DNA of 32,000 bases from an uncultured archaeon (lineage in GTDB: Archaea; Asgardarchaeota; Heimdallarchaeia; Heimdallarchaeales; Heimdallarchaeaceae). This document shows, in pieces, positions 12,917-28,747 of the stretch. Made by a program: the position numbers and the translations under genes. The stretch is taken from NCBI GenBank assembly GCA_964534625.1, contig CAZHRF010000010.1, forward strand, positions 41,430-73,429. Reading direction: 5' to 3'. Under the pieces are notes generated by a model. That model searched no databases. It was not told where the DNA came from and saw nothing but the letters and a program-made list of their open reading frames with translations. Within the stretch, counting starts at the first letter, position 1, and each line of letters starts with the position of its first letter.

Positions 12917-13130
12917 TTCTTCATCCTTTCTTTTCTATTTTTTTCGTGAAGTGTGACGTTCATCTTATGTGTTTTTCAGCTCTAAATATTAACCAACAAA
13001 AATACTTTTGGTTGTCAACAGAGATGAACTCAAAGGTACATGTCTTCTTTTTTGTCTTTTAAAGTACAACGTACTATACGTACAATAACGTTTTTATTAG
13101 TTATTTGTGATTTTTTATTCGGTAATTATA

Positions 13131-14288
13131 ATGAGTGAAGAAGCTAAAAAAACCCAATTGTGGGAATGGCATGAAGATAATGGTGGAACGATGGTAGATT
13201 TTGCTGGGTGGTATTTGCCTGTAAAATTTACCGATATAGTCGAAGAGCATATGGCTGTTCGAGATAACATGGGTATCTTTGATGTTTCTCACATGGGACG
13301 TTATGAGATTAAGGGAAAATATGCTACTAAAGCTGTTGAATTATTAGTTCCCCGTAAGATCCGTGCTATGCCTGAAATGAAATGTGGTTATACATTTTAT
13401 CTAAATGAAAATGGTGGTTTTAGAGATGACACAATCGTTGGAAAAATTAATGAAGAGCATTATTGGATTGTATGTAATGCAGGTAATCTTGAAAAAATCA
13501 TGGCTTGGGCTAAAATGGTTTGTTTAATGGTTGAAGATATAACAGGCGAACCTCTTGAATTCAAAAATTATTCCGCTGAAACAGCTATGTATGCAGTTCA
13601 AGGTCCTAATGCCTATAAGATATTAGAACGTCTTGGTGTGGCTGATACTGGTCGTTGGTTGATTGTGAATGCTGAAGTTGAAGGGATAAAATGTATATTT
13701 ACGGGTACCGGGTATACAGGGGAATCGGGATTTGAAGTCACAGTATTCGATACAACAGTAGATAAGCCTATTAATGCTATTAAAGTTTGGGAAAAGATTT
13801 TGGAAGTAGGAGATGATCTAGGATTAGTACCTTGTGGTTTGGGAGCGAGAGATTCATTGCGATTAGAAGCTGGTTTACCGCTCTATGGTGATGAAATAAC
13901 GGAAGACATCAACCCTGTTGAAGCAGGTTTAGATCTATCCTTCTTTATGAATTTAGAAAGAGAAGAATACTTTATTGGTAGAAGTGCAATTGAAGAGATT
14001 AAAAAGAAGGGAGTAAACAAAAAAAGAATAGGGTTCATTATGAAAGGAAAAGGCATACCTCGTCACGAATATAAAATACTCAATGAAGATGAAGAAGAGA
14101 TAGGCATTGTTACTAGTGGTGCTTATTCACCATTAAACGAGACAGGAATAGGCATGGGCTATGTTCCTATCGATTATACTGAACCTAAAACGCCAATAAT
14201 TATTCAAATTCGTAATAGAAAAGTAGATGCGGAAATAGTAAAAATACCATTCTATGACCCAAGCAAATATGGCTGGAAAAGAAAATAA
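13131..14288 (+). CDS. gcvT: Glycine cleavage system T protein (aminomethyltransferase)
   Basis: The ORF track starts at GTG 13107; the ATG at 13131 gives MSEEAKKTQLWEWH. Motifs: MGIFDVSHMGR, GTGYTGESGFEV, GLGARDSLRLEAGLPLYG. Confidence 0.92.
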   Translation: MSEEAKKTQLWEWHEDNGGTMVDFAGWYLPVKFTDIVEEHMAVRDNMGIFDVSHMGRYEIKGKYATKAVELLVPRKIRAMPEMKCGYTFYLNENGGFRDDTIVGKINEEHYWIVCNAGNLEKIMAWAKMVCLMVEDITGEPLEFKNYSAETAMYAVQGPNAYKILERLGVADTGRWLIVNAEVEGIKCIFTGTGYTGESGFEVTVFDTTVDKPINAIKVWEKILEVGDDLGLVPCGLGARDSLRLEAGLPLYGDEITEDINPVEAGLDLSFFMNLEREEYFIGRSAIEEIKKKGVNKKRIGFIMKGKGIPRHEYKILNEDEEEIGIVTSGAYSPLNETGIGMGYVPIDYTEPKTPIIIQIRNRKVDAEIVKIPFYDPSKYGWKRK

Positions 14289-14380: not shown

Positions 14381-15208
14381 TCAACCAATTATTTCTTGTT
14401 CTTTTTTAAGCTCTTCAAGATATTTATCAGGATCAGACCAAATGGGTATTTCCCCTTGTATGTGTTCATTTAGGAAAATAGTTGCGGCAGTATCTACATC
14501 AAGTTTTCCGCCTTTTTTGAGTCTATGTCTTTTTTTTGCAAATTTTCGCATAAAATCAACTGGGTCCTCATATTTTATTTCATAAGTTTTTGTAAGAACA
14601 TCAGGATTTATTTCATCAATTTTGTTAACTAATGCCCAAGCTGCTTTTAAAGCGTCGTCTAATTGTTCGTGCCTTTTTACGCCTAATAATATCTGTTCGA
14701 TCATAGGTAATGTAGTGGGAATTACTCCTGGTGTATCAAATATACGTAATCGAGTGGTTATTCGTAATATCTGCTCTGCTTTTGTATATCCAGGTATAGG
14801 AGCAACTGGTGCACTAGATCTACCTTTAAGTACATTCATTAATGAGCTTTTGCCAGTATTGGGTTGTCCAATAAAACAAGCAGTAATATAAAAATACTCA
14901 TCACCTGCTTCTCTGATTATGGTTCTTTTTAGTACAGCTGTACTTAATCTTTTTGTAGCAGAGGTAGTTAAAACCGTAAAACCCTCATTTTTAATAAGAT
15001 TTCTCCATTTGTTTACAATATGATCGGGAACTAGATCAACTTTATTCATAACTACAAGTAGCTTCTTTTTAGGATCACGGGTAACTTTTTTTTCATAGTG
15101 TCTATTACGAGAAAGCATAGGAAAACGTGCATCGATAACTTCAACTACAACATCACTTTTTTTAATCATTTTATTAACTGTACGACTGTAACTTCTTTTT
15201 TTAGGCAT
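14381..15208 (-). CDS. Circularly permuted GTPase of the YlqF/YawG (RbgA/Nog2/Lsg1-like) ribosome-biogenesis family
   Basis: 275 aa. The G motifs are in permuted order: G4 NKVD (VVMNKVDLV), then G1 GQPNTGKSS, then G3 DTPG. Confidence 0.85.
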   Translation of the reverse strand: MPKKRSYSRTVNKMIKKSDVVVEVIDARFPMLSRNRHYEKKVTRDPKKKLLVVMNKVDLVPDHIVNKWRNLIKNEGFTVLTTSATKRLSTAVLKRTIIREAGDEYFYITACFIGQPNTGKSSLMNVLKGRSSAPVAPIPGYTKAEQILRITTRLRIFDTPGVIPTTLPMIEQILLGVKRHEQLDDALKAAWALVNKIDEINPDVLTKTYEIKYEDPVDFMRKFAKKRHRLKKGGKLDVDTAATIFLNEHIQGEIPIWSDPDKYLEELKKEQEIIG

Positions 15209-17301: not shown

Positions 17302-18759
17302 TTATCCTTTAATGTTACCTATAGGTCTTAATCTTACTATAGGTTTTCCTATATTAGCCACCTTTAATGCTTTAACAACTTTATCAATGTCTTTATAGGC
17401 TATACCAGCTTCTTCAGCTAGACCGGCCATTGAAGCTCCCTTTATGTAGATGCCTTTTTCTCTTAATTCTTTCAGAAGTGTTTCTCCCCATACTTCTCTC
17501 TTTGCTTGACTTCTACTCATTGTTCGTCCAGCACCATGAGCAGTTGAACCAAAACTAACATCCATAGATCCTTGAGTTCCAGTTAAAACATATGAACCTG
17601 TTTCCATTGAACCTCCAATTAAGACTGGTTGTCCGATGTTTTGGTAATCTTTAGGAACTTCTGAATGATTTGGTGGGAAAGATCTAGTTGCCCCTTTACG
17701 ATGAACTACAACTTTACGTTTTTCGCCATTAATAGTATGATCTTCAAATTTAGCAATGTTATGAGCAACATCATAAACTAGTTTAATGGCAAGTTCATCT
17801 TGATCTTTTCCAAAAACTTCAGAAAATACTTTTCGAACATTATTGGTTATAACTTGTCTATTTGCAAAGGCCATATTAGCTGCACAACTCATAGCTGCGT
17901 AATAATCTTGTCCTTCTTCAGACTGAATAGGAGCACTAGCTAATTCTTTATCTCTAATTGGTATATTATATTTCTTCATTGCTTTAAGAAAAGACCTTAG
18001 GTAATCAGATCCAATTTGATGTCCAAAACCCCTAGAACCACAATGTATCATAATTGTAACATTACCAGGTTTCAGATTCAATTGTTTAGCTATTTTTTCA
18101 TCAAAAACATCATTTTCACTCAAAGTTTGTATTTCTAAAAAGTGATTACCAGAGCCTAATGTTCCAACCTGTTTATAACCCCGATTCATTGCTTTTTGAC
18201 TTACTGCCGCGGGATTCGCTTGTTCAAGATGTCCTTCATTTTCTGTGTGTCTAACATCTTCTTTAGTCGCATAACCATTTTCTTCACACCACTTTGATCC
18301 TCGTGTTATAACCCCTTCAAACTCTGATTTACTAATATGTAAAGCCCCTTTTACACCCACACCAGCTGGAACCTGTTGAAAAAGTTTTTCAACTAAATGT
18401 TTAATTTTAGGCCTTACTTCATCTTCGGCAAGATTAGTTGTCAATAATCTTACACCACAATTAATATCAAATCCTATACCTCCTGGGCTTATAACTCCTT
18501 CTTCTATATCCATAGCTGCAACGCCTCCAATTGGAAAACCATATCCAACGTGGGCATCGGGAAGTGCCAAAGAATAATTTTGAACACCAGGTAAAGTAGC
18601 TACATTGGTTATTTGGTCAATGACTTTTTTTTCAATAAATTCCTTAATTTCAGGTGTAGCAATAATTCTGGCAGGAACTTTCATTCCGTTCTTGTAGGAA
18701 GTGGGGATTTCCCATGTAAAATCGTTAATTTTCTTCATTTGTATATTATCTAATGACAT
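17302..18759 (-). CDS. rtcB: RNA-splicing ligase RtcB (3'-phosphate/5'-hydroxyl RNA ligase); no intein
   Basis: Motifs: GGIGFDINCGVR, IHCGSRGFGHQ, STAHGAGR (catalytic His). The track starts at TTG 18768. ATGs at 18759 (MSLDNIQMKKIND) and 18738 are both plausible starts. Confidence 0.93.
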   Translation of the reverse strand: MSLDNIQMKKINDFTWEIPTSYKNGMKVPARIIATPEIKEFIEKKVIDQITNVATLPGVQNYSLALPDAHVGYGFPIGGVAAMDIEEGVISPGGIGFDINCGVRLLTTNLAEDEVRPKIKHLVEKLFQQVPAGVGVKGALHISKSEFEGVITRGSKWCEENGYATKEDVRHTENEGHLEQANPAAVSQKAMNRGYKQVGTLGSGNHFLEIQTLSENDVFDEKIAKQLNLKPGNVTIMIHCGSRGFGHQIGSDYLRSFLKAMKKYNIPIRDKELASAPIQSEEGQDYYAAMSCAANMAFANRQVITNNVRKVFSEVFGKDQDELAIKLVYDVAHNIAKFEDHTINGEKRKVVVHRKGATRSFPPNHSEVPKDYQNIGQPVLIGGSMETGSYVLTGTQGSMDVSFGSTAHGAGRTMSRSQAKREVWGETLLKELREKGIYIKGASMAGLAEEAGIAYKDIDKVVKALKVANIGKPIVRLRPIGNIKG

Positions 18760-18897
18760 TAATCTCAAACTGTAGTAAACTTTATTTTTTAATAAACTCT
18801 GTCATTCATCAGTTTTTTGTAAATTCTCATCCATCAAAGTATTTTTTAAAAACTGCTAATATTTTTTATTCAATAGAATAGTATAAATGTGATAGAT

Positions 18898-19329
18898 ATG
18901 TATAATATCAATATTTTAGAAGATAGAATTATTGGTGACTTCGAGTTTGAAGTTACCGCTGATTCGCTTAATGAATTGTTTACGGGTGCGGGTATTGCTA
19001 CGGTTAAAGCAATGGTAGATCCTACTTCAATCAGTAATAATAAATCATGGAAAATAGAACTTGAGGAACAAGATTTAGAATTTTTATTATTTGATTTCTT
19101 AAACGAGATTATAGCATTAAAAGATAGTAAAACTGTTCTTTTTAGAGACTTTAGTGTAGATATATCAAAATCTGATGAAATGTATATACTTAAAGCCAGT
19201 TTTCATGGAGATAAAATAGATTATAATAATACCTCATTATTAACTGATGTAAAAGCTGTTACAATGCATGAATTTATCGTTGAAAAAAGAGATGAAATGT
19301 GGTTTTGTCACGTTATACTTGATTTATAA
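18898..19329 (+). CDS. Archease (RtcB activator)
   Basis: 143 aa from the ATG at 18898. It matches the archease pattern throughout (DSLNELFTGAGIATVKAMVD, EEQDLEFLLFDFLNEII, DVKAVTMHEFIVEK...WFCHVILDL) and is divergent from rtcB. The usual N-terminal HTAD motif reads IIGD here. Confidence 0.8.
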   Translation: MYNINILEDRIIGDFEFEVTADSLNELFTGAGIATVKAMVDPTSISNNKSWKIELEEQDLEFLLFDFLNEIIALKDSKTVLFRDFSVDISKSDEMYILKASFHGDKIDYNNTSLLTDVKAVTMHEFIVEKRDEMWFCHVILDL

Positions 19330-19446: not shown

Positions 19447-19857
19447 ATGACTGATGTAATAAAAGTTTTAGATAAATATAGCGTTAGAAAAGACTGTTTG
19501 TACACTGAAAACCACGAATGGGTTCGCAAAGAAGGCGAAATCTACATTTATGGGATTTCCGACTATGCTCAACAAAAACTTGATGCATTAACTTTTGCAG
19601 AAGTTCCTGACGAAGGTTCTTCTTTTGATAAAGGAGAGGATATGGGTTTTGTCGAAGCACTAAAAACAACCGAAGACTATTATGCGCCTTTTGACTGTGA
19701 AGTTGTTGAAGCTAACAAAGACTTAGAAGAAGATGCTGAAGTTATAAATGATTCACCCTATGAAGATGGATGGATTGTTAAGATCAAAGCATTAGGTGAA
19801 GTAGAAGGATTACTTTCAGCTGAAGATTACGTAGAATTTATTAAAAATAATGAATAG
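19447..19857 (+). CDS. gcvH: Glycine cleavage system H protein (lipoyl carrier)
   Basis: 136 aa. Motifs: YTENHEWVR, GISDYAQQKL, lipoyl-lysine context VEALKTTEDYYAPFDCEV, and PYEDGWIVKI. GAGGT lies 9 nt upstream of the ATG. Confidence 0.92.
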   Translation: MTDVIKVLDKYSVRKDCLYTENHEWVRKEGEIYIYGISDYAQQKLDALTFAEVPDEGSSFDKGEDMGFVEALKTTEDYYAPFDCEVVEANKDLEEDAEVINDSPYEDGWIVKIKALGEVEGLLSAEDYVEFIKNNE

Positions 19858-19870
19858 GAGCAAAAACTCT

Positions 19871-21265
19871 ATGAACAATTTTTCGCACCCTTATCTTGGC
19901 AATTCTTCACAAGATATTCAAGAAATGCTAGATTTTTTAGGACTAAAATCTGTTGAAGATCTTTTTGCAGATATTCCTGACTCAATCAAATTTAAAGGAA
20001 AACTAACCAAAATCCCTCATTTTACGAGTGAATATGACGTTCTTCAACACATTGAAAAAACTCTCGCAAACAATATAACAACTCGAGAGTTTCACTCATT
20101 TTTAGGGGGCGGAATTCTTGACGTATATATTCCAGCTTCACAAGACGAACTACTACGCCGTTCTGAGTTTTATTCTGCATATACACCGTATCAACCCGAG
20201 ATAAGCCAAGGTATGCTTCAAAGTTTATTCGAATATCAGAGTTATATGTGTGAATTATTAGAGATGGACATTTCTAACTCTTCATTATATGATTGGGCAA
20301 CAGCACTAGGTGAATCTGCCCTTATGTGTGCACGTATAACTGGAAAAAACAAGTTCTTATATACACAAGCTATTTCTCCGCACAGATTGAAAGTTTTGGA
20401 GAACTACACCAAAGGGGCAGATATACAATTAATACCAATTCCTTATAATCCGACTACTGGAAAAATGGATATTGAGAAGGCTAAAGAATTAATTGATGAT
20501 GAAACAGCTGGAGTGTATTTTGAGAATCCAAACTATTTTGGGATAATTGAAGACAATATCCAGGAGATTACAGATTTTCTTAAAGATAAAAAAGCCTTAG
20601 CAGTAGCAGGAGTTGAACTTTCGACTCTTGGAATTATGGAAGCACCAGGTAATTATGGTGCAGATGTAGCAATTGGAGAAGGACAAACAATTGGTTCAGG
20701 ACCGTTAAGTTTTGGAGGACCACTACTTGGGGTATTCACAATGAAATTTGAAAGAAGATGGATACGCCATGCACCAGGTAGAATTGTAGGTCAAACCATC
20801 ACTCAAAATGAAGGAGAAGTTGCATACGTAAATACATTACAAACACGAGAGCAACATATACGAAGAGAAAAAGCAACAAGTAATATCTGTACTAATCAAG
20901 CATTAGCCGCTGTTAGTACAACCATCCACTTGTCATTGCTTGGACCTCAAGGTCTTCGAGAAACGGGTGAAAATATGTATTATAATGCCCACTACTTGGC
21001 TGATGAGCTAAGAAAAGCAGGAATAGATCTAAAATATTCTGGGGGATTTTTCAATTCGTTTGTGATAGATTTGAATATTGCAGAGAATATCAGAGAAGAT
21101 TTTGTCAAGTACATGATTAGTAAAAAGATTTTCCCGGGCATTCCAATACTCAATGAAGATGGTTCTGCGGATTATTTAGTTACTACTAGTTATTTGTTAA
21201 AAAAGGATAGTCTGGATACATTTGTTAAAGCATTAGTTGAATGGAGGAATGGAAATGGAATATAG
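19871..21265 (+). CDS. gcvPA: Glycine dehydrogenase (decarboxylating) subunit 1 (GcvPA)
   Basis: Motifs: YTPYQPEISQGMLQSLFEYQ and REQHIRREKATSNICTNQAL. The start is ambiguous. ATG 19850 overlaps the gcvH stop. ATG 19871 (MNNFSHPYLGN) has GGAG 10 nt upstream and gives an N-terminus more like known archaeal GcvPA proteins. Confidence 0.9.
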   Translation: MNNFSHPYLGNSSQDIQEMLDFLGLKSVEDLFADIPDSIKFKGKLTKIPHFTSEYDVLQHIEKTLANNITTREFHSFLGGGILDVYIPASQDELLRRSEFYSAYTPYQPEISQGMLQSLFEYQSYMCELLEMDISNSSLYDWATALGESALMCARITGKNKFLYTQAISPHRLKVLENYTKGADIQLIPIPYNPTTGKMDIEKAKELIDDETAGVYFENPNYFGIIEDNIQEITDFLKDKKALAVAGVELSTLGIMEAPGNYGADVAIGEGQTIGSGPLSFGGPLLGVFTMKFERRWIRHAPGRIVGQTITQNEGEVAYVNTLQTREQHIRREKATSNICTNQALAAVSTTIHLSLLGPQGLRETGENMYYNAHYLADELRKAGIDLKYSGGFFNSFVIDLNIAENIREDFVKYMISKKIFPGIPILNEDGSADYLVTTSYLLKKDSLDTFVKALVEWRNGNGI

Positions 21266-22760
21266 ACAAGCAAGGCACAATGAACCACTAATATTTGAGC
21301 TAAGCAAAAAGGGGAGAAGAGCATCTTTTCCAACACAGACAGATGTTCCAAAAAAAGATATCACTATACCCAAAAATATGCTGAGAAAAAACTCACCTTT
21401 ACTACCAGAAATGAGTGAAGGAGAAGTTTATCGCCATTTCTTGAAACTCTCACAAATGAATTATGCAATTGATGTGGGAACTTACCCATTAGGCTCTTGT
21501 ACAATGAAATTCAATCCAAAAATTAACGAAACAGTAGCGAGATTACCAAAAATAGCATATACACATCCCGCACAACCTTGTGAAACTGTACAAGGAGTTC
21601 TAAAAATCTTGTATGACCTTCAGAATGCTTTAAGTGAATTAGCAGGTCTACCCCATTGTACTCTTCAACCAGCTGCAGGTGCTCAAGGTGAATATGTTGG
21701 ATTAGCACTAATTCGAGCATACCATCATGATCATGGCGATACGCAAAGAGATGAAATTATTGTTCCTGATGCTAGTCATGGTACTAACCCAGCTAGCTCG
21801 TCCATGAATGGGTTCAAAACCATTGTAATTTCAACCAACGAGAAAGGACAAGTTGATCTTGATGAACTCAAAGCCGCTGTATCAGAGAAAACAGCGGGAT
21901 TAATGTTAACTAATCCCAATACTATTGGTATCTTTGAATCCAAAATTGAGGAAATTGCAAAAATTGTTAAGGAAGAAGGTGGGCTTTTGTACTATGACGG
22001 TGCGAATTTTAATGCGATAATGGGGAAAATCCGTCCAGGTGACATGGGATTTGATGTATTGCACTATAATCTACATAAAACTTTTTCTACACCTCACGGC
22101 GGTGGTGGTCCAGGGGTCGGGGCAGTTTGTTGTTCTAATGAACTTGCTCCATATTTACCAATTCCTATAATAGAAATTGATGATGAAAAAGGCATTTATA
22201 CAGCGAATTACGAGAAACCGAAGTCTATAGGAAAAATCCATGGGTTCTATGGTAATATAGGCGTATGTATAAGAGCATATGCATATATTTGCGCCTTGGG
22301 TAAAGAAGGACTGAAAAAAGTGGCAGAACATGCTGTTCTTGTTTCTAACTATATGTTACGAAACATGGAGAAGATTGAAGGGCTAAACTTAACTTATGCT
22401 CCAGAGACCCCTCGAAAACACGAATTTGTCCTTTCTGCAGATGAACTTAAGAAAGAATATAACATTTCAGCAATGGATGTTGCCAAACTGTTATTAAATA
22501 AAGGTTTGCATGCACCTACAGTTTATTTCCCCTTGAACATACATGAGGCATTGATGGTTGAACCAACAGAAAATGAAAACAAAGAACGAATAGACGCATA
22601 CGTCAAACTCTTAAAAGAAGAAATAGACAAAGCTAAAAAAGATGAAGAATATGCGCATCAAGCACCCAAAAACACAGCTATTGGTCGTGTAGATGATGTA
22701 TATGCTGCACGCAATTTCTTACTTTCTTGGAGATTGATAAAGCAAAAAAAGAACAAATAG
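21255..22760 (+). CDS. gcvPB: Glycine dehydrogenase (decarboxylating) subunit 2 (GcvPB)
   Basis: MEYRQARHNEPLIFE is a typical N-terminus. The PLP-lysine motif is NLHKTFSTPHGGGGPG. GGAGG (21243-21247) lies 7 nt upstream of ATG 21255. The gene overlaps the end of gcvPA by 11 nt. Confidence 0.92.
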   Translation: MEYRQARHNEPLIFELSKKGRRASFPTQTDVPKKDITIPKNMLRKNSPLLPEMSEGEVYRHFLKLSQMNYAIDVGTYPLGSCTMKFNPKINETVARLPKIAYTHPAQPCETVQGVLKILYDLQNALSELAGLPHCTLQPAAGAQGEYVGLALIRAYHHDHGDTQRDEIIVPDASHGTNPASSSMNGFKTIVISTNEKGQVDLDELKAAVSEKTAGLMLTNPNTIGIFESKIEEIAKIVKEEGGLLYYDGANFNAIMGKIRPGDMGFDVLHYNLHKTFSTPHGGGGPGVGAVCCSNELAPYLPIPIIEIDDEKGIYTANYEKPKSIGKIHGFYGNIGVCIRAYAYICALGKEGLKKVAEHAVLVSNYMLRNMEKIEGLNLTYAPETPRKHEFVLSADELKKEYNISAMDVAKLLLNKGLHAPTVYFPLNIHEALMVEPTENENKERIDAYVKLLKEEIDKAKKDEEYAHQAPKNTAIGRVDDVYAARNFLLSWRLIKQKKNK

Positions 22761-23424: not shown

Positions 23425-24987
23425 TTATGGTGCATCATCGTGTCCCTCGAAATAGTATCCTTTTTCTATTCTAAATTCGCAATATTTGTATCCAGTTCCA
23501 TGGCACTTTGTTTCTGTCACTATTGGGGGTTCCTTTAAGAGTAGAGATAACCTCCCAGCAATATATCCAGCCATGAAATCACATAATGTCTCATTAAGGT
23601 TGGTTTCAGATAAATCAGCACCAGAAGCATATGCACATTCATATATGCGGATATACATTTCATCTTCATCTTCACCATCATAAATCTCAACAAATGAGTA
23701 TTCTCTTTTAAGAATATTTGATGGATGAATTAGATATTTATGAAGAAATTCAACCGCTTCTTTCAATGAATCTAGCGGGAGTTTCTCTGCATCTAGAATT
23801 TCATAAATAATATTCTTACCAGGTCCTACAATACCCAACTCTCTTGCTGCTGTATAGAGAAGAGCTGCACAATACTTATCTCGAAATTTCAAGGACATAA
23901 TCTGTTGTTGTAACGTACTAATATGAACATAATCAATATCATTTGGTCTCAACTTTTCTTTCATCATTAATGACGCATAGCCATTTTTCATTGTTTCATG
24001 AATTAACTCGTAAAACATTTGTTTTCTGTACTCTTCAGCTGGCATGTCTCCAAAAAATTTAATTGTTTTATCTTCTTCTGATATTTCATGTTTTTTATAA
24101 GGGGCATATCCGGGTTCTTTGCCGATATATACGTTTATTTCAAATTCACAATATGGCGCTCCCAACCCCTTACAATTTGTTTCAACTACACGGGTTGCAG
24201 AACCAAGCATTGCTTCAACAGTACCAGCTATTTCTCCTGCTATGAAGTGACAGAGAGTTTCACCAACATTTATTGCACCAGCACTATTAACCAAATCATA
24301 TATACGTAATTTAGCCCTATATCCGTCTAATTCAGCCACATCAGTTTGTGTTGCTAAGTATAGTGGAATTTCACTATTGTGACTATAAAGTTTAGCTAAT
24401 CCAATTAAAACTTCCTGAAATCTTTCAGCAGGATTAATAGTACCAACTTTTGCATTCAAAACAGTAAGATAAAAAGGAAATGCACCATAAGTCCCTAGTT
24501 CGCGACCAGAGAGATAGAGTAATTGAGGAACAAGCGGATCTAATGAAAGTAATGATAATAAAACTTGCTGATACACAGAGATATGACAGTAATCCCCAAT
24601 ATTTTCGCGTAAAAGTTCTTGAGAGATTATACTATCTATAGTATTTTTTGTGAGAACCATCATTGATTCTTTACGTCGCGTATGACGTTCTTGAGAAACC
24701 ATTGTGGGTAAAATTTTTGACCAAATTCGTTCCCGTATTACATCTTCAGTAATCATTCCTTGTGCTAAGATTTCATTATTCATCATTAAAACAGGTACGG
24801 ACATGATTCCATATTGATTTGCTATTTCTTGTTCTTCTGAAATATCAATCTTGGACACATGAATTGTATCTTGCATAGATAATCCTACTACTTGTTCGAC
24901 GATACGTTCAACTTCTGGACAAGCAAAACAAGTTGGACTGGTGAATAAAAGCAATCTTATTTTCTCTGACATATCTTCATTTGACAT
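23425..24987 (-). CDS. Three-domain protein: N-terminal thioredoxin-like domain (CFAC) plus two tandem V4R (4-vinyl reductase / COG1719-type) domains
   Basis: 520 aa. The Trx-like part is LLLFTSPTCFACPEVERIVEQ...YGIMSVPVLMMNNE. The internal duplication of about 190 aa is visible by eye. Repeat A reads YCHISVYQQ...LYLSGRELG...ETLCHFIAGEIAGTVEAML...VVETNCKGLGAPYCEFEINV. Repeat B reads YVHISTLQQ...LYTAARELG...ETLCDFMAGYIAGRLSLLL...VTETKCHGTGYKYCEFRIEKG. The C...ExxCxxxGxxxCEF ending is the V4R hallmark. Confidence 0.75.
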   Translation of the reverse strand: MSNEDMSEKIRLLLFTSPTCFACPEVERIVEQVVGLSMQDTIHVSKIDISEEQEIANQYGIMSVPVLMMNNEILAQGMITEDVIRERIWSKILPTMVSQERHTRRKESMMVLTKNTIDSIISQELLRENIGDYCHISVYQQVLLSLLSLDPLVPQLLYLSGRELGTYGAFPFYLTVLNAKVGTINPAERFQEVLIGLAKLYSHNSEIPLYLATQTDVAELDGYRAKLRIYDLVNSAGAINVGETLCHFIAGEIAGTVEAMLGSATRVVETNCKGLGAPYCEFEINVYIGKEPGYAPYKKHEISEEDKTIKFFGDMPAEEYRKQMFYELIHETMKNGYASLMMKEKLRPNDIDYVHISTLQQQIMSLKFRDKYCAALLYTAARELGIVGPGKNIIYEILDAEKLPLDSLKEAVEFLHKYLIHPSNILKREYSFVEIYDGEDEDEMYIRIYECAYASGADLSETNLNETLCDFMAGYIAGRLSLLLKEPPIVTETKCHGTGYKYCEFRIEKGYYFEGHDDAP

Positions 24988-25052: not shown

Positions 25053-25757
25053 TTATTTATTATTAATAGGTAACAACTGCTCTGCAGGCGCATATCGACT
25101 TAAAACATTAAATTTTTCAGCATATTGAACACCACATTCCATTCCATTAGATCGTCTTCTAACATCGAGCCAGTCACCCATTCCCCAGCCATAGAATTCA
25201 GCATAAAGTTGGTAACCAGATCTCACTTTATCAAAGTTTTTTGTTATGTCAACGTGCACAACTCTGAGAGGTGAATTACTATCATAATACAAAAACATTG
25301 GTACATGATAACGTGGTCTGTGAGGTGGTTCGGGATCAGTTATACGGGGTAATCGTGCATAGGTAAGAGCATCATACAGAAGATTAACAGTACCACGATG
25401 ATCTGGATGGCTGTTCGTTTGGTTCCAAGTTACAATTGCATCGGGTTTTAATTGAGCTATTAATTTAGCCATTTTAAGAGCATTTTCTCTAGTACTAAAA
25501 ACTGATGTGTCTTTATGGTCCATAAAGAGAGTTTCACAGTCAATGATAGCTCCAATTTTCTTTCCTTGCTCTTCTCTAATATCTTTAACTTGATCGAAAG
25601 ACATACCGTCAAAAAACGAAGCCATTTCACCTGAAGTTGTCCAAGCCAATATGACTTTATCTCCATTATCTACGTGGTTTACAAGCGTTCCCAAACAGCT
25701 TAATTCGTCATCAGGATGCGCAAAACATGCAAAAATGGTTTTCTTTTTTTTATCCAT
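25053..25757 (-). CDS. PIG-L / LmbE-family N-acetylglucosaminyl deacetylase
   Basis: The ATG at 25757 gives MDKKKKTIFACFAHPDDE. The Zn-binding motifs AHPDDE and HPDH (NSHPDHRGT) are present. The track's longer N-terminus lacks support. Confidence 0.82.
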   Translation of the reverse strand: MDKKKKTIFACFAHPDDELSCLGTLVNHVDNGDKVILAWTTSGEMASFFDGMSFDQVKDIREEQGKKIGAIIDCETLFMDHKDTSVFSTRENALKMAKLIAQLKPDAIVTWNQTNSHPDHRGTVNLLYDALTYARLPRITDPEPPHRPRYHVPMFLYYDSNSPLRVVHVDITKNFDKVRSGYQLYAEFYGWGMGDWLDVRRRSNGMECGVQYAEKFNVLSRYAPAEQLLPINNK

Positions 25758-25940
25758 ACTATTACTTCCAAAATTATCAATTTTAATATTACGATTTGGC
25801 GACAGTTTAAACAAAAAAATTAACACTATACCTTCTTTCCACAGAAAATAATTATGTATACATTATTAAAATCTTATATTACTAGTAAATAGCCTTTTAT
25901 AATTAAATCTTTAAAATTTAAGTACCCAGAGGCTTAATAT

Positions 25941-26672
25941 ATGTACGATAGAACAAGAAGAAACAAACCTTCCAGGATAGTTGAAGTTCCTATCCCGTCT
26001 GATGTATGGGATATCTTAGAAGATCTTATTATGACCTATGGGAATAAAGAAGAAGCAATCATTGAATCTATTAAAGGGCATCATGAACAGTTATATGGTT
26101 CTGATGCACAACCCAAACCCGAACAATCGCCTGAAGACGAGTATGAATATGTTCGTATGCCTAAAAAAACTGAGAGGCACATAACAGATGGGAGATGGGA
26201 GAAGATTACAGAAAATGGTCAAAAGATGCGAATGAGGACAAATGAAGAACTGGAAAAAGTTGATGAATTACTAGAAAAAGTAAAAACGCTTTTTGAACAG
26301 AAAAAACAAGAAGCAAGACCTCAAACACCCATTAATGATAACGACAAAATAAACGAGCTTATTCGAAAAGTAGATAATTTATCTAAAATATCCGATTTAT
26401 CTAGTGAAATTAATTCAATAAAATATTTGCTCCGCAATATGGGCTCAGGAGAGATCAGTAGAAAAGGAAAACGAGCAGATCTTTCATCTCTAGAAATAAA
26501 TTTGTCAAAAGGTATAGATCCATCAATAACTTCTCCAGAGCGTCCTTTACTTGAGACAGCTTTAGACAGCATACTACTATTTGATGATGAGGATTTCGAT
26601 GAAGAGTTAGAGACAGAGAAAAATCCAGAAGGAGAAAAAAAGGGAGGATCTGATGAAAAAAATAAAAATTAA
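25941..26672 (+). CDS. Hypothetical protein: possible N-terminal ribbon-helix-helix, central coiled coil or low-complexity region, strongly acidic C-terminal tail
   Basis: 243 aa. The RHH-like beginning is SRIVEVPIPSDVWDILEDLIMTYGNKEEAIIESIKGHHE (strand-helix-helix pattern). A heptad-like stretch reads EELEKVDELLEKVKTLFEQKKQE. The tail reads LLFDDEDFDEELETEKNPEGEKKGGSDEKNKN. Confidence 0.6.
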   Translation: MYDRTRRNKPSRIVEVPIPSDVWDILEDLIMTYGNKEEAIIESIKGHHEQLYGSDAQPKPEQSPEDEYEYVRMPKKTERHITDGRWEKITENGQKMRMRTNEELEKVDELLEKVKTLFEQKKQEARPQTPINDNDKINELIRKVDNLSKISDLSSEINSIKYLLRNMGSGEISRKGKRADLSSLEINLSKGIDPSITSPERPLLETALDSILLFDDEDFDEELETEKNPEGEKKGGSDEKNKN

Positions 26673-26684
26673 ATTAACACAAAA

Positions 26685-27215
26685 CTATTTTTTTATAGCT
26701 TGTTTCACTAAACTATGAGCTAAATCTCTAAAAGCCTCATCCACATGGTCACCAGTAAGTGCACTAGTTTTTATGAACTTTTTACTAGCAATTGATTCAA
26801 CAAGTTCTTTACACTCTTCATCAGAAACAGATATTTTATCAGTTAAGTCTTTCTTATTTCCCACAACAATAGTGACAACATTAGGTCCACAAATCTCGAC
26901 AAGTTCTTTATTCCACTCTTTCAAATCTTGAAGGGTTGATTCTCTTGTCAAATCAAAAACCAGTAATGAAGCTTTGGCACCTCTGAAAAAATTATGCCTA
27001 ATGAATTTAAAACGGGATTGTCCAGCTATATCCCATATAGAAAGGGCTACAAGTGTGCCATTCTCCAATTCGATATACTTCTCGCTAGGTTCCATACCTA
27101 TTGTTAATAAATAATTTTGAGAAAACTTATCATGAATAAAACGTTGGACAAGTGATGTTTTACCAACTGCAGCGGCACCAAGTAATACTACTTTGAAATT
27201 ATAGTCGGGATGCAT
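26685..27215 (-). CDS. Ras-superfamily small GTPase, Rab-like
   Basis: 176 aa. G1 GAAAVGKTS, switch I YLLTIGMEP, G3 WDIAGQ, G4 GNKKD, G5 KTSAL. Counterparts of the Rab family motifs are LSIW, RFKFIR, FFRGA and LLVFDLT. There is no C-terminal Cys; the protein ends VKQAIKK. Confidence 0.88.
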   Translation of the reverse strand: MHPDYNFKVVLLGAAAVGKTSLVQRFIHDKFSQNYLLTIGMEPSEKYIELENGTLVALSIWDIAGQSRFKFIRHNFFRGAKASLLVFDLTRESTLQDLKEWNKELVEICGPNVVTIVVGNKKDLTDKISVSDEECKELVESIASKKFIKTSALTGDHVDEAFRDLAHSLVKQAIKK

Positions 27216-27242
27216 TTTATTATTAACCTCAATTGCGATAAA

Positions 27243-27542
27243 TTATACTGTTCTGGCATTTTCTAATTCTTGTTCCAAGCTTTCTAAGAAGTATTTCTCA
27301 AATGAACCATCTGCTCTTTTAATTGTAGTCAGTGAGATACATAAATCAAGAACAAAATCATATTTATCTTTTTCATTTGATGAATACTTGTAAGCTTCTA
27401 ATCTGGATTGAACTATTTTTGACATTTTTGATGCTTCTTTTTTATCTATATTACCTTGTTTATACTCAGAAAATATCTCTTGCATTATACTTAAAGCATC
27501 ATCTGTCGTTTCTATTTTTTTGGGTATAGAAAACTTATTCAT
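27243..27542 (-). CDS. Hypothetical 99-aa protein, predicted all-helical; first gene of the GTPase operon
   Basis: It ends 27 nt upstream of the GTPase ATG on the same strand. A TATA-like ATATATTA lies about 30 nt upstream of its ATG. The sequence (DDALSIMQEIFSEYKQG, EASKMSKIVQSRLEAYKY, YDFVLDLCISLTTIK, FEKYFLESLEQELENAR) looks like about 4 amphipathic helices. No family recognised. Confidence 0.6.
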   Translation of the reverse strand: MNKFSIPKKIETTDDALSIMQEIFSEYKQGNIDKKEASKMSKIVQSRLEAYKYSSNEKDKYDFVLDLCISLTTIKRADGSFEKYFLESLEQELENARTV

Positions 27543-27641
27543 TATACAACATCCTTGAAATAGATTAATATATGTTTTGCTAACTGAAGAATCTCAGTCA
27601 ACTGTGAATATAAAATATAGTTAACTAATAGTACGTCTGAT

Positions 27642-27680
27642 AAAAAAAGAAAATGTGATTGGAAAAGGGAAAAAATCCCC
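27642..27680 (-). terminator. Possible terminator of the wHTH gene: GGGGA-T5-TCCC-type mini hairpin plus T-runs on the minus strand
   Basis: The plus strand reads GGGAAAAAATCCCC (27667-27680) and A7 (27642-27648). On the minus strand this is a GC hairpin followed by TTTTCC and later T7, about 75-110 nt after the wHTH stop. Confidence 0.35.
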
Positions 27681-27752
27681 TCAACGTCCCGTACCCTCAT
27701 TCCAAAAAGGAATAGAATAATTAATTATTAGAAAAATTAATTATATAGTTCC

Positions 27753-28022
27753 TTAAGCTGATTGTTCAACTTCAGATTGTTCAGGAAGGAATTCAAATTT
27801 ACTCCTGAGTTCAGGATCTAAATAATAAAACACACTTCGCATGTCTCTTAAATTAGACATTTTCTTTAGTATTCCTTTCTCAAGTAATCTACGGATTCCA
27901 TACCTTACAGTACGCTCGGGTTGGTCAACTGAACGTAATATCTCTTTTTGGGTCATAGGACCGCGTTCATCCAATACTTTTATTATGTCCTCGCCACCGC
28001 GTGGCAATTTTCTACGTTTCAT
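27753..28022 (-). CDS. Small winged-helix DNA-binding protein (MarR/TrmB/ArsR-like)
   Basis: 89 aa. IIKVLDERGPMTQKEILRSVDQPERTVRYGIRRLLEKGILKK is a standard wHTH pattern (H2-turn-H3 followed by a wing). Confidence 0.75.
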   Translation of the reverse strand: MKRRKLPRGGEDIIKVLDERGPMTQKEILRSVDQPERTVRYGIRRLLEKGILKKMSNLRDMRSVFYYLDPELRSKFEFLPEQSEVEQSA

Positions 28023-28054
28023 AATTCATCACTTCTTTGTTATATTTGTACGAC

Positions 28055-28078
28055 TTGTGGAAATATTTAATCCCACAA
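28055..28078. promoter_or_regulatory. Inverted repeat TTGTGG-N12-CCACAA with an internal AAATATTT palindrome, just upstream of the wHTH gene
   Basis: TTGTGG is at 28055-28060 and CCACAA at 28073-28078, 33-56 nt upstream of the wHTH ATG (28022). A TATA-like AAATATA (minus-strand sense) lies immediately promoter-proximal. This is a candidate autoregulatory operator. Confidence 0.35.
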
Positions 28079-28372
28079 TCAACATTCGAGTTAAATTCTC
28101 GGTGATACCATTCGCACGTCTAATATTTATAAATGTTTGCCTTGTTCGAACAGAACAGTGCATTATAATTTACATTTAACTAGACGCGTAAAATATGTAT
28201 ATTAGATACATATCAATAGAGTGGTATACTCAACTCGCTAGTATTAAAACTATGTCTTTTTTGATATATAAACATTTAGGCTACCTGAACACGTGTAAGG
28301 AGAGATTTTCATATATTTGCAATTTTTTCTACAATCAGATAAATTTAAAATGGTACAGGCAAGAGACTATAT

Positions 28373-28747
28373 GTGACAAATTTCAACAAAAATGAGTTTT
28401 TACTATATTATGGTAGTGCCTATTTAGTTGTTGCTATATTGGAAACAGTATTATTTTCTGCCATCTTGGGAGATTGGACCTTTAGAATAATAATGCTGAA
28501 TTTTAGCATTTGGGGTGTTATTTGGTTAGTGTCTATGTTTGCCTTTCCTCTATTTATATTTGATGCAGAACCAACTATGTTAGCACTTTCCCCTTATTTA
28601 TCACTATTAGGCTATGTAATTATCATTGTAGTATTTTATATTACATATAAGATACATATTCACCAATTAGAAAAACGTACAAAAAAGAAATTGAATTTTA
28701 GTAAAATGATGGATTTATATTTCCCTATTGAAGAAGAGAAAGAATAA
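28373..28747 (+). CDS. Hypothetical small membrane protein (about 3-4 TM)
   Basis: 124 aa with a GTG start; there is no in-frame ATG before residue 41, so the start is uncertain. Hydrophobic segments include YLVVAILETVLFSAIL, IWGVIWLVSMFAFPLFIF and LLGYVIIIVVFYI. The tail is basic. Confidence 0.5.
   Translation: MTNFNKNEFLLYYGSAYLVVAILETVLFSAILGDWTFRIIMLNFSIWGVIWLVSMFAFPLFIFDAEPTMLALSPYLSLLGYVIIIVVFYITYKIHIHQLEKRTKKKLNFSKMMDLYFPIEEEKE

What the first reader, a model, noticed from the sequence alone, without database searches (positions are those of the whole stretch)
26685..27542. Rab-like small GTPase in a two-gene operon with an unrecognisable 99-aa helical partner
The 176-aa GTPase has all G boxes. 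It also has recognisable counterparts of the Rab-family (RabF) motifs: TIGMEP for IGVDF, LSIW for KLQIW, RFKFIR for RFRSIT, FFRGA for YYRGA and LLVFDLT for LVYDIT. The catalytic Gln is retained in WDIAGQ.

It lacks any C-terminal Cys, so prenyl anchoring is not possible. That combination is a eukaryote-signature protein of the kind reported in Asgard archaea.

Prokaryotic Ras-like GTPases are usually paired with Roadblock/LC7 (MglB-type) or longin-like partners. Here the co-transcribed upstream gene (27-nt gap, own TATA-like box) is a 99-aa, apparently four-helix protein that resembles neither. It could be an undescribed GAP, GEF, effector or membrane adaptor for an archaeal Rab-like switch.
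Basis: partly seen in the sequence, partly recalled or inferred. Interest (0 to 1): 0.72.

Follow-up and report, generated by a model that had tools for sequence, protein, structure and literature searches.

The report
Heimdall Rab-like GTPase with orphan partner
In one family of Asgard archaea, a Rab-like GTP switch protein is always made from the same short transcript as a previously undescribed 99-residue four-helix protein, which gives a rare, directly testable candidate for a GTPase and its cognate partner in close archaeal relatives of eukaryotes.

Summary
Window 27243-27542(-) encodes a 99-aa protein (P99). Window 26685-27215(-) encodes a 176-aa small GTPase with intact G1, G3, G4 and G5 motifs, the switch-I Thr, the catalytic Gln and no C-terminal Cys.

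The GTPase belongs to the known Asgard "RasL/Rab-like" group. Its best solved relative is Thorarchaeota Rab, followed by eukaryotic Rab11 and Rab1. Published phylogenies do not place such proteins specifically sister to Rabs.

P99 is a real protein under purifying selection. AF2 predicts a four-helix bundle (pLDDT 91). It has no Pfam, NCBIfam, PDB-sequence or Foldseek relative. Its family has about 39 clusters, and every member that carries an organism name is from Heimdallarchaeota/Heimdallarchaeaceae.

P99 sits immediately upstream of the same GTPase orthogroup in every locus examined (about 20). The gap ranges from an 8-nt overlap to 27 nt, across four different arrangements of neighbouring genes. 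P99 is absent next to paralogues that are 50-55% identical.

A conserved BRE/TATA element ends 22-26 nt upstream of the P99 start codon, which implies a leaderless bicistronic mRNA.

P99 has an invariant Arg76 at a loop apex inside a strongly conserved helix-loop-helix face.

Most likely P99 is the cognate binding partner (GAP, effector or adaptor) of this one GTPase.

The parts
27565..27580 (-). Archaeal promoter: TATA box ATATATTAA (27565-27573) with an upstream A-rich, BRE-like GCAAAAC (27574-27580). The TATA box ends 22 nt before the P99 ATG, which implies a leaderless mRNA.
   Evidence: The motif is conserved at -34 to -22 relative to the ATG in the 15 loci examined, including rearranged ones. 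The 12-mer occurs only once in the window.
27243..27542 (-). P99: an orphan 99-aa four-helix-bundle protein and the first cistron. The conserved face covers residues 66-89 with invariant Arg76 at the helix3-helix4 loop.
   Evidence: ORF. The family has 39 clusters. In the 38-sequence alignment, L67, S70, T73, R76, F81, S88 and L89 are invariant. AF2 gives pLDDT 87-91. dN/dS is 0.03-0.3 in most pairs. No family or fold match was found.
27216..27242 (-). 27-nt intercistronic spacer with a Shine-Dalgarno-like GAGGT (27226-27230) 10 nt before the GTPase ATG. There is no room for a promoter.
   Evidence: Sequence. Junctions in orthologous loci range from an 8-nt overlap to 27 nt, and SD-like GAGGAG or AGGAG occurs in other lineages.
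26685..27215 (-). RasL/Rab-like small GTPase, 176 aa, the second cistron. It has complete G1, G3, G4 and G5 boxes, the switch-I Thr38 (G2) aligned with the Rab Thr, catalytic Gln66 and no C-terminal Cys.
   Evidence: Pfam Ras 3.8e-45. The best PDB match is 7ezb Thorarchaeota Rab at 8.5e-35; the other 59 of the top 60 hits are all eukaryotic Rabs/Ypts, led by Rab11 and Rab1. Motifs. An orthogroup at 58-93% identity is found in Heimdallarchaeota.
26630..26684 (-). T-rich tract (TTTTGTGTTAATTTAATTTTTATTTTTTT) directly after the GTPase stop codon. It is a plausible archaeal oligo-T terminator and overlaps the 3' end of the convergent CC243 gene.
   Evidence: Sequence printed. Its role is inferred and was not tested.
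27753..28022 (-). Neighbour: an 89-aa winged-helix (MarR/HTH_24-like) protein. It is a separate transcription unit and usually lies upstream of the pair, but rearrangements in some genomes separate it from the pair.
   Evidence: Pfam HTH_24 6e-06. It is separated from P99 by CC243 and PIG-L in L009 and L010, absent in L006, and separated by an inserted gene in L024. A terminator-like GC hairpin plus T-run follows it.
28373..28747 (+). Neighbour: TM124, a 124-aa membrane protein with 3-4 hydrophobic helices. It stays close to the pair in most genomes with variable orientation, and is a speculative membrane anchor.
   Evidence: Synteny. Hydropathy. No Pfam match.
25941..26672 (+). Neighbour: CC243, an acidic 243-aa protein of unknown function, convergent with the GTPase gene. 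It is conserved nearby in most genomes but not all.

Best explanation
The locus is a leaderless, bicistronic operon specific to Heimdallarchaeaceae. A conserved BRE/TATA promoter drives P99, an orphan 99-aa four-helix bundle. A RasL/Rab-like small GTPase is translated from the same mRNA through a very short or overlapping junction.

Shown:
- Gene structure, promoter conservation and strict adjacency.
- Matching phyletic distribution of P99 and one GTPase orthogroup.
- Purifying selection on both genes.
- The predicted fold of P99 and its lack of known relatives.

Inferred:
- P99 is the dedicated binding partner of this one GTPase paralogue, out of the dozens each genome encodes.
- P99 contacts the GTPase's switch I, interswitch and switch II surface through its conserved helix3-loop-helix4 face (residues 66-89).
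- In doing so it either supplies invariant Arg76 as a catalytic finger (GAP) or reads out the GTP state as an effector or adaptor.

The GTPase has no lipid anchor, so the partner or the nearby membrane protein TM124 may provide localisation.
For: 1. Adjacency. P99 and the GTPase are adjacent and co-oriented in 17 of 17 loci analysed, and in 2 further GTPase-anchored loci. The gap ranges from an 8-nt overlap to 27 nt.
2. Robustness to rearrangement. The pair is intact in four gene orders: the standard order; L009 and L010, where CC243 and PIG-L lie between wHTH and P99; L006, where the flanks are an aminotransferase and V-ATPase genes; and L024, which has an inserted gene. Links between other neighbours break in these cases.
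3. Shared distribution. GTPase-anchored look-ups found a small upstream ORF in 6 of 6 cases, and 5 were verified as P99. No P99 was found beside 50-55% identical paralogues under a max-sensitivity HMM search. An exhaustive scan of 1.84 billion representative proteins gave only 6 credible clusters.
4. Promoter. It is conserved before P99 only, and there is no room for one before the GTPase gene.
5. P99 conservation. Arg76 is invariant in 38 of 38 sequences and lies in a conserved 24-residue helix-loop-helix.
6. Orthogroup-specific GTPase residues. 9 of 17 fall in residues 30-78, the switch I to switch II stretch (Fisher p=0.019). A further three form an N-terminal PDxN motif.
7. Catalytic set-up. 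The GTPase keeps catalytic Gln66. At the position of Thor-Rab Arg37, the proposed intrinsic finger, it has Leu, so a trans-acting Arg would make sense (alignment; PMC10933270).
8. Precedents. MglA-MglB and ArvA-ArvB/C are prokaryotic small GTPases whose operon neighbours act with them (PMC10927574; PMC13408092).
Against: - No physical interaction was modelled or measured.
- The whole 7-gene neighbourhood is fairly collinear among these genomes, so part of the linkage is simple inheritance within one archaeal family.
- A four-helix bundle is a generic fold, and the Foldseek matches are non-specific (best E 0.74).
- Arg76 could be purely structural, for example salt-bridged to D66 or E82.
- Enrichment of paralogue-specific residues in the switch region is expected for any Rab-type paralogue, and its p-value is modest.
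- dN/dS is 0.72 for P99 between the two closest genomes, though this rests on few substitutions.
Confidence: 0.55

Rival explanations
1. P99 is specifically a minimal GTPase-activating protein. It docks on the switch regions and inserts invariant Arg76, from the helix3-helix4 loop, into the active site to complement Gln66, like the arginine fingers of the all-helical RasGAP and RhoGAP domains.
For: - Arg76 is invariant in 38 of 38 sequences and sits at a loop apex inside the most conserved segment.
- The GTPase retains Gln66 and lacks the switch-I Arg seen in Thor-Rab and MglA (PMC10933270).
- The classic prokaryotic operon partner, MglB, accelerates hydrolysis. This last point is general knowledge.
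Against: - P99 shows no sequence or fold similarity to RasGAP, RhoGAP, TBC or any other GAP.
- It has no TBC IxxDxxR or YxQ motifs.
- At 99 aa it is much smaller than known helical GAP domains.
- No interface model is available.
Confidence: 0.2
2. P99 is co-expressed with the GTPase but does not bind it. It acts elsewhere in the same pathway, or on another neighbour such as TM124, wHTH or CC243, or it is an unrelated small protein that shares a promoter.
For: - Operon membership does not prove contact.
- The wider neighbourhood of small genes is also conserved.
- P99 has a generic interaction-module fold.
Against: - P99-GTPase is the only link that never breaks across four arrangements.
- The junctions are overlapping or nearly so, which suggests translational coupling and matched stoichiometry.
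- The two genes have an exact shared phyletic range.
Confidence: 0.2
3. The linkage is only inherited synteny within a narrow clade and carries no functional meaning. P99 is a lineage-specific orphan of little consequence.
For: The family is confined to one archaeal family, and much of the surrounding block is collinear.
Against: - The genomes are deeply diverged: P99 identity is 33-46%, GTPase identity is 58-69%, and dS is saturated.
- Several rearrangements hit the neighbourhood without ever splitting the pair.
- A conserved promoter and strong purifying selection on a defined P99 surface point to function.
Confidence: 0.05

Closest known systems
Asgard RasL / 'Rab-like' small GTPases (e.g. 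Thorarchaeota Rab, PDB 7EZB; Tran et al. 2024, PMC10933270)
   Same: Same fold family and G boxes. It is the best PDB match, at 8.5e-35 over residues 3-172. Both have RabF-like motifs and no prenylation Cys. NCBI already names orthologues 'Rab family GTPase'.
   Different: This orthogroup has Leu or Met where Thor-Rab has the putative intrinsic Arg37. It carries an orthogroup-specific N-terminal PDxN motif and specific switch and interswitch residues. Unlike the MK-D1 GTPases, which are described as generally not in operons with regulators, it has a fixed operon partner.
MglA-MglB (and RomX) of Myxococcus/Thermus: a prokaryotic Ras-like GTPase with a genetically linked regulator
   Same: A small Ras-superfamily GTPase is co-transcribed with a small dedicated partner. 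RomX is likewise a small protein that binds MglA-GTP directly (PMC13408092).
   Different: MglB is a Roadblock/LC7 alpha/beta protein, whereas P99 is all-helical with no Roadblock or longin signal. MglA lacks the catalytic Gln arrangement of Rab/Ras. No homology between P99 and either partner was detected.
ArvA-ArvB-ArvC operon of Euryarchaeota/DPANN (PMC10927574)
   Same: An archaeal small GTPase is conserved in an operon with small proteins of unknown function, and those proteins are required for the GTPase's cellular role in vesicle formation. Linkage was used as the key evidence: 93% of ArvB homologues lie directly adjacent.
   Different: ArvA is an Arf/MMR_HSR1-like GTPase and its partners lie downstream (DUF2073 and a Zn-ribbon DUF2072). 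Here the GTPase is Rab/Ras-like, and the single helical partner lies upstream. No function has been demonstrated for this locus.
Helical Rab-binding domains and arginine-finger GAPs of eukaryotes (RILP or Rab11-FIP type helical RBDs; RasGAP, RhoGAP and TBC domains)
   Same: These are all-alpha modules that engage the switch and interswitch surface. The GAPs supply an Arg from a loop between helices. This comparison rests on general knowledge.
   Different: No sequence or structural similarity was detected. The RILP hit (E 0.02) appears in only 2 of 38 members and is noise. Foldseek found no GAP or RBD.

Membership tests
Ras superfamily small GTPase (Pfam PF00071 Ras) | Score above the Pfam gathering threshold over the full domain | tested here: met
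   153.8 bits against a cut-off of 21.6, covering residues 8-169 of 176. TIGR00231 small_GTP scored 89 bits against a cut-off of 42.5.
Ras superfamily small GTPase (Pfam PF00071 Ras) | G1 GxxxxGK[ST], G2 Thr, G3 DxxGQ, G4 NKxD and G5 SA[K/L] all present | tested here: met
   GAAAVGKT at 13, DIAGQ at 62, NKKD at 120 and SAL at 151. The G2 Thr is T38 in YLLTIG, aligned with the Rab switch-I Thr.
Eukaryotic Rab family proper | RabF1-F5 motifs | tested here: inconclusive
   The aligned positions read IGMEP, ALSIW, RFKFIR, FFRGA and LVFDLT, against IGVEF, KAQIW, RYRAIT, YYRGA and LVYDIT in Rab11. About half the residues are identical, and several are shared with Ras, Rho and Ran.
Eukaryotic Rab family proper | C-terminal Cys prenylation motif (CC, CXC or CAAX) | tested here: not met
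   The protein ends in ...LVKQAIKK and has no Cys after position 135. Orthologues also lack one.
Eukaryotic Rab family proper | Phylogenetic placement inside or sister to the Rab clade | not tested
   Only similarity ranking was done. The top 60 PDB hits are Thor-Rab plus 59 eukaryotic Rabs/Ypts. The published tree finds Asgard RasL not specifically sister to Rabs.
Asgard RasL GTPases (Klinger 2016; Vargova 2024) | An Asgard-encoded Ras-like GTPase clustering with Rab, Ras, Rho, Ran and Rup1 rather than with the Arf, Rag or MglA groups | tested here: met
   The homologues that carry a source name are nearly all Heimdallarchaeota or other Asgard, with two labelled Bathyarchaeota/Bathyarchaeia and one Zixibacteria. 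Similarity to Arf is weakest, at 46 bits. Gtr1_RagA gives only a partial hit.
Roadblock/LC7 (MglB-type) or longin GTPase partners, tested for P99 | A Pfam Robl_LC7 or longin match, or an alpha/beta roadblock fold | tested here: not met
   None of the 38 members gives such a Pfam hit among the top families. The AF2 model is all-alpha with four helices.
TBC, RasGAP or RhoGAP domains, tested for P99 | A family HMM match, or a fold match to solved GAP domains | tested here: not met
   No RabGAP-TBC, RasGAP or RhoGAP catalytic-domain Pfam family is among the families listed, and the only GAP-related entry is an N-terminal domain of RHG29/45 in 1 of 38 members at E 0.022. No GAP structure appears in the Foldseek lists, where the best E-values are 1.1 and 0.74.
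Vps28 C-terminal helical bundle, considered for P99 because an ESCRT/ubiquitin cluster lies nearby in some genomes | A PF03997 match or a fold match to Vps28-C structures | tested here: not met
   PF03997 VPS28 is not among the 25 families listed for the 38 members. The profile-versus-PDB search gave only E=0.43 to the Vps28 N-terminal core 2f6m_B. No Vps28 structure is among the top Foldseek hits.
Bicistronic operon (co-transcription of P99 and GTPase) | Same strand, a gap too short for a promoter, one conserved upstream promoter, and conservation of the arrangement | tested here: met
   Direct evidence from RNA-seq or a mapped transcription start site is not available with these tools.

The most novel reading that the evidence does not exclude
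P99 is a previously unrecognised, minimal regulator of a Rab/Ras-type GTPase: a 99-residue arginine-finger GAP, or a primordial helical effector or adaptor. It would have evolved in Heimdallarchaeaceae independently of the Roadblock, longin, TBC and RasGAP families. That would give the first genetically matched GTPase-regulator pair of the Rab/Ras type in close archaeal relatives of eukaryotes.
Probability: 0.2. Interest if true: 0.8.

Novelty: new variant of a known kind. Interest (0 to 1): 0.55.

Why it matters
Asgard genomes encode dozens of Ras-superfamily GTPases, but almost none can be matched to a regulator or effector. Tran et al. 2024 note that operon context generally does not help.

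This locus has a strictly conserved, apparently translationally coupled pair. One member is a Rab-like switch and the other is an orphan helical protein with an invariant Arg. That offers a concrete two-protein system for biochemistry and structure determination. It could show how Rab/Ras-type switches were regulated or localised before prenylation, TBC GAPs and DENN or TRAPP GEFs existed.

If P99 proves inert, the locus is simply one more Asgard Rab-like GTPase.

Tried and rejected
1. AF2 model of the complex. A block alignment with a GS-linker fusion misaligned the partner rows. No interface prediction was possible.

2. Remote homology for P99. All of the following were negative or inconsistent noise:
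- Pfam and NCBIfam on the single sequence.
- Pfam on all 38 members.
- PDB by phmmer and by profile.
- Foldseek against PDB with two models.
- Exhaustive hmmsearch of 1.84 billion representatives.

Two long repetitive hits (P0130 and P0131) were dismissed as low-complexity or coiled-coil matches.

3. A diverged P99 beside more distant GTPase homologues (L020-L022). None was found. The 81-aa ORF in L020 is an unrelated Cys-rich peptide.

4. Vps28-C, RILP and CheR-like ideas. These were prompted by the neighbouring ESCRT genes, weak Pfam hits and a JGI label. None is supported.

5. Known RNA families in 25800-28500. None at E<=0.1.

6. A formal phylogeny with eukaryotic Rab, Ras, Rho and Ran. 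Not done, because no reference set is available offline.

Full report
**Observation**

The two ORFs are present exactly as described. A 176-aa ORF lies at 26685-27215(-) and a 99-aa ORF (P99) at 27243-27542(-). They are separated by 27 nt and share a reading frame.

The larger protein is an unambiguous Ras-superfamily GTPase:
- Pfam Ras at 3.8e-45 and TIGR00231 at 2.7e-25.
- G1 GAAAVGKT, G3 DIAGQ, G4 NKKD and G5 SAL.
- No Cys after residue 135.

Its best solved relative is the Thorarchaeota Rab 7EZB, at 8.5e-35. Every other entry in the top 60 is a eukaryotic Rab or Ypt. It gave Rab1A 120 bits, Rab7A 104, Ran 89, RhoA 80, Rap1A 78, HRas 58 and Arf1 46.

**Origin**

Homologues of both proteins that carry names come from Candidatus Heimdallarchaeota or Heimdallarchaeaceae MAGs. 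Related loci include the closed genomes of Ca. Heimdallarchaeum aukensis and Ca. H. endolithica. The window is therefore Asgard DNA with about 33% GC.

NCBI already labels orthologues 'Rab family GTPase'. Vargova et al. class such proteins as RasL and explicitly did not recover any Asgard sequence as specific sister to eukaryotic Rabs. The GTPase itself is a new member of a known kind.

**The partner protein**

P99 has no hit in Pfam, NCBIfam or PDB sequences, either alone or as a 38-sequence profile. A scan of each of the 38 family members separately gives only scattered, mutually inconsistent sub-threshold matches.

AF2 predicts a compact up-down four-helix bundle:
- pLDDT 87.3 with 3 sequences.
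- pLDDT 91.1 and pTM 0.81 with 38 sequences.
- Helices at 13-28, 34-49, 55-76 and 79-96.

Foldseek against the PDB returns nothing better than E=0.74, and the matches are only generic helical bundles.

The family is small and narrow:
- The word-indexed search with the window protein alone found 3 clusters, counting the window's own sequence.
- A profile search found 39 clusters, all 77-107 aa and all 'hypothetical'.
- An exhaustive HMM scan of 1.84 billion representatives found only six credible clusters.

P99 is a genuine protein under constraint. dN/dS is 0.03-0.3 in four of five close pairs. It is 0.72 between the two nearest genomes, where substitutions are few.

Conservation is concentrated in D66-L-C-I-S-L-x-T-I-x-R76-A-x-G-x-F-E-x-F-Y-L-x-S-L89. 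In 38 sequences, L67, S70, T73, R76, F81, S88 and L89 are invariant. Arg76 sits at the apex of the helix3-helix4 turn.

**Linkage**

Using phmmer on all ORFs of the fetched loci, P99 and the GTPase orthologue are adjacent and co-oriented in 17 of 17 loci with enough DNA. The same holds in two further GTPase-anchored loci.

Starting from the GTPase side, 6 of 6 orthologues had a small ORF immediately upstream. Five of these were verified as P99 homologues at 36-46% identity. The sixth had no DNA available.

The junction ranges from an 8-nt overlap to 27 nt.

The surrounding genes are rearranged in at least four ways:
- The common order is NADK(-), TM124(-), wHTH(+), P99, GTPase, CC243(-), PIG-L(+).
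- In the two closed Heimdallarchaeum genomes, CC243 and PIG-L lie between wHTH and P99.
- In L006, the pair is flanked by an aminotransferase, TM124 and V-ATPase genes, with no wHTH or CC243.
- In L024, a 186-aa gene is inserted between wHTH and P99.

Only the P99-GTPase link is never broken.

Paralogous or more distant GTPases at 50-55% identity lack P99. One has an unrelated Cys-rich 81-aa ORF instead.

Asgard genomes carry roughly 36 small GTPases each; the published figure is 291 in 8 MAGs (PMC8813620). P99 therefore tracks one specific paralogue.

**Transcription signals**

The sequence GCAAAAC-ATATATTAA (27565-27580, minus strand), or the variant CAAAT-TATATTAA, ends 22-26 nt upstream of the P99 ATG. 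This holds in all 15 loci examined, including the rearranged ones.

That spacing is the canonical distance between an archaeal BRE/TATA element and the transcription start, which implies a leaderless mRNA. This step rests on established knowledge of archaeal promoters.

There is no space for a second promoter before the GTPase gene. SD-like GAGGT, GAGGAG or AGGAG motifs precede its start codon in several lineages.

In most standard-order loci a GC hairpin plus T-run follows the wHTH gene, so wHTH is a separate unit. A T-rich tract follows the GTPase stop codon.

No Rfam family overlaps the region.

**Mechanistic inference**

The GTPase keeps catalytic Gln66. At the position of Thor-Rab Arg37, which has been proposed as an intrinsic finger like MglA Arg53, it has Leu or Met (PMC10933270).

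Residues invariant in the P99-linked orthogroup but different in the P99-less paralogues number 17. Nine lie in residues 30-78, the switch I, interswitch and switch II stretch (Fisher p=0.019). Three form an N-terminal PDxN motif. These are the surfaces that Rab partners normally read.

Together with the invariant loop Arg on P99, this supports P99 as a cognate binder of the switch surface. I rate that general claim at about 0.55. Within it, a GAP role through Arg76 and an effector or adaptor role are about equally likely, and a GEF or chaperone role is less likely.

No interaction could be modelled.

**Comparison with known systems**

The logic matches two precedents. One is MglA-MglB/RomX. 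The other is the archaeal ArvA-ArvB-ArvC operon, where conserved adjacency correctly flagged functional partners.

P99 differs from all known partner families. It is not Roadblock or longin, not TBC, RasGAP or RhoGAP, and not Vps28-C.

Tran et al. state that Asgard (MK-D1) GTPase genes are generally not in operons with regulator genes, which makes it hard to match GTPases to their regulators. This locus is an exception and could be useful for that reason.

**Verdict**

The GTPase is ordinary for an Asgard genome. The conserved operon with an orphan helical protein bearing an invariant Arg is a new variant of the 'small GTPase plus operon-encoded partner' theme, confined to one archaeal family. 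Interest is moderate (0.55) and would rise to about 0.8 if a GAP or effector activity is demonstrated.

Noticed in passing
window 23425-24987 (-): A 520-aa protein has an N-terminal thioredoxin/glutaredoxin-like domain and two V4R domains. V4R is the fold shared with the TRAPPC3/Bet3 subunits of the eukaryotic Rab GEF TRAPP (PMC10933270). It lies 1.7 kb from the Rab-like GTPase here and in L002, but not in other genomes, so the linkage is not conserved.
   Followed up: partly
L001 10127-12297; L007 7572-10442; L008 7585-10455: In several Heimdallarchaeaceae genomes a ubiquitin, ThiF (E1) and UQ_con/VPS28-fusion (ESCRT-I-like) cluster lies about 2 kb downstream of the P99-GTPase pair. This cluster is not present in the window.
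   Followed up: partly
L020 153-398: An unrelated 81-aa Cys-rich, zinc-ribbon-like ORF overlaps the start of a 55%-identical paralogous GTPase gene, and PIG-L is still nearby. A different small partner for a sister GTPase is possible. It is reminiscent of the ArvC Zn-ribbon.
   Followed up: no
window 28373-28747 (+), 27753-28022 (-), 25941-26672 (+), 25053-25826 (-): A loose neighbourhood of genes stays near the pair in most genomes, although order and orientation vary. It comprises TM124 (3-4 TM helices), an 89-aa winged-helix protein, the acidic 243-aa CC243 and a PIG-L-family deacetylase. In L001 and L006, TM124 is co-oriented with the pair.
   Followed up: partly
protein cluster of P0132 (P0168, P0169): JGI/IMG labels some P99 family members 'chemotaxis methyl-accepting protein methylase'. 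No Pfam evidence supports this, so it looks like a spurious automated annotation.
   Followed up: yes
window 17302-19329: A divergent RtcB tRNA-splicing ligase and archease gene pair. This is an expected functional pairing.
   Followed up: no
window 13107-14288 and 19447-22760: Glycine cleavage system genes are split into two blocks in the window: T protein in one, and H, P1 and P2 in the other.
   Followed up: no
window 14381-15208 (-): A second, unrelated GTPase of 275 aa, of the MMR_HSR1/RsgA type and probably a ribosome-biogenesis GTPase.
   Followed up: no
L024 1955-2515 (-): A 186-aa gene with no annotation is inserted between the wHTH gene and the P99 promoter in one genome. The P99 promoter and the pair are untouched.
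   Followed up: no
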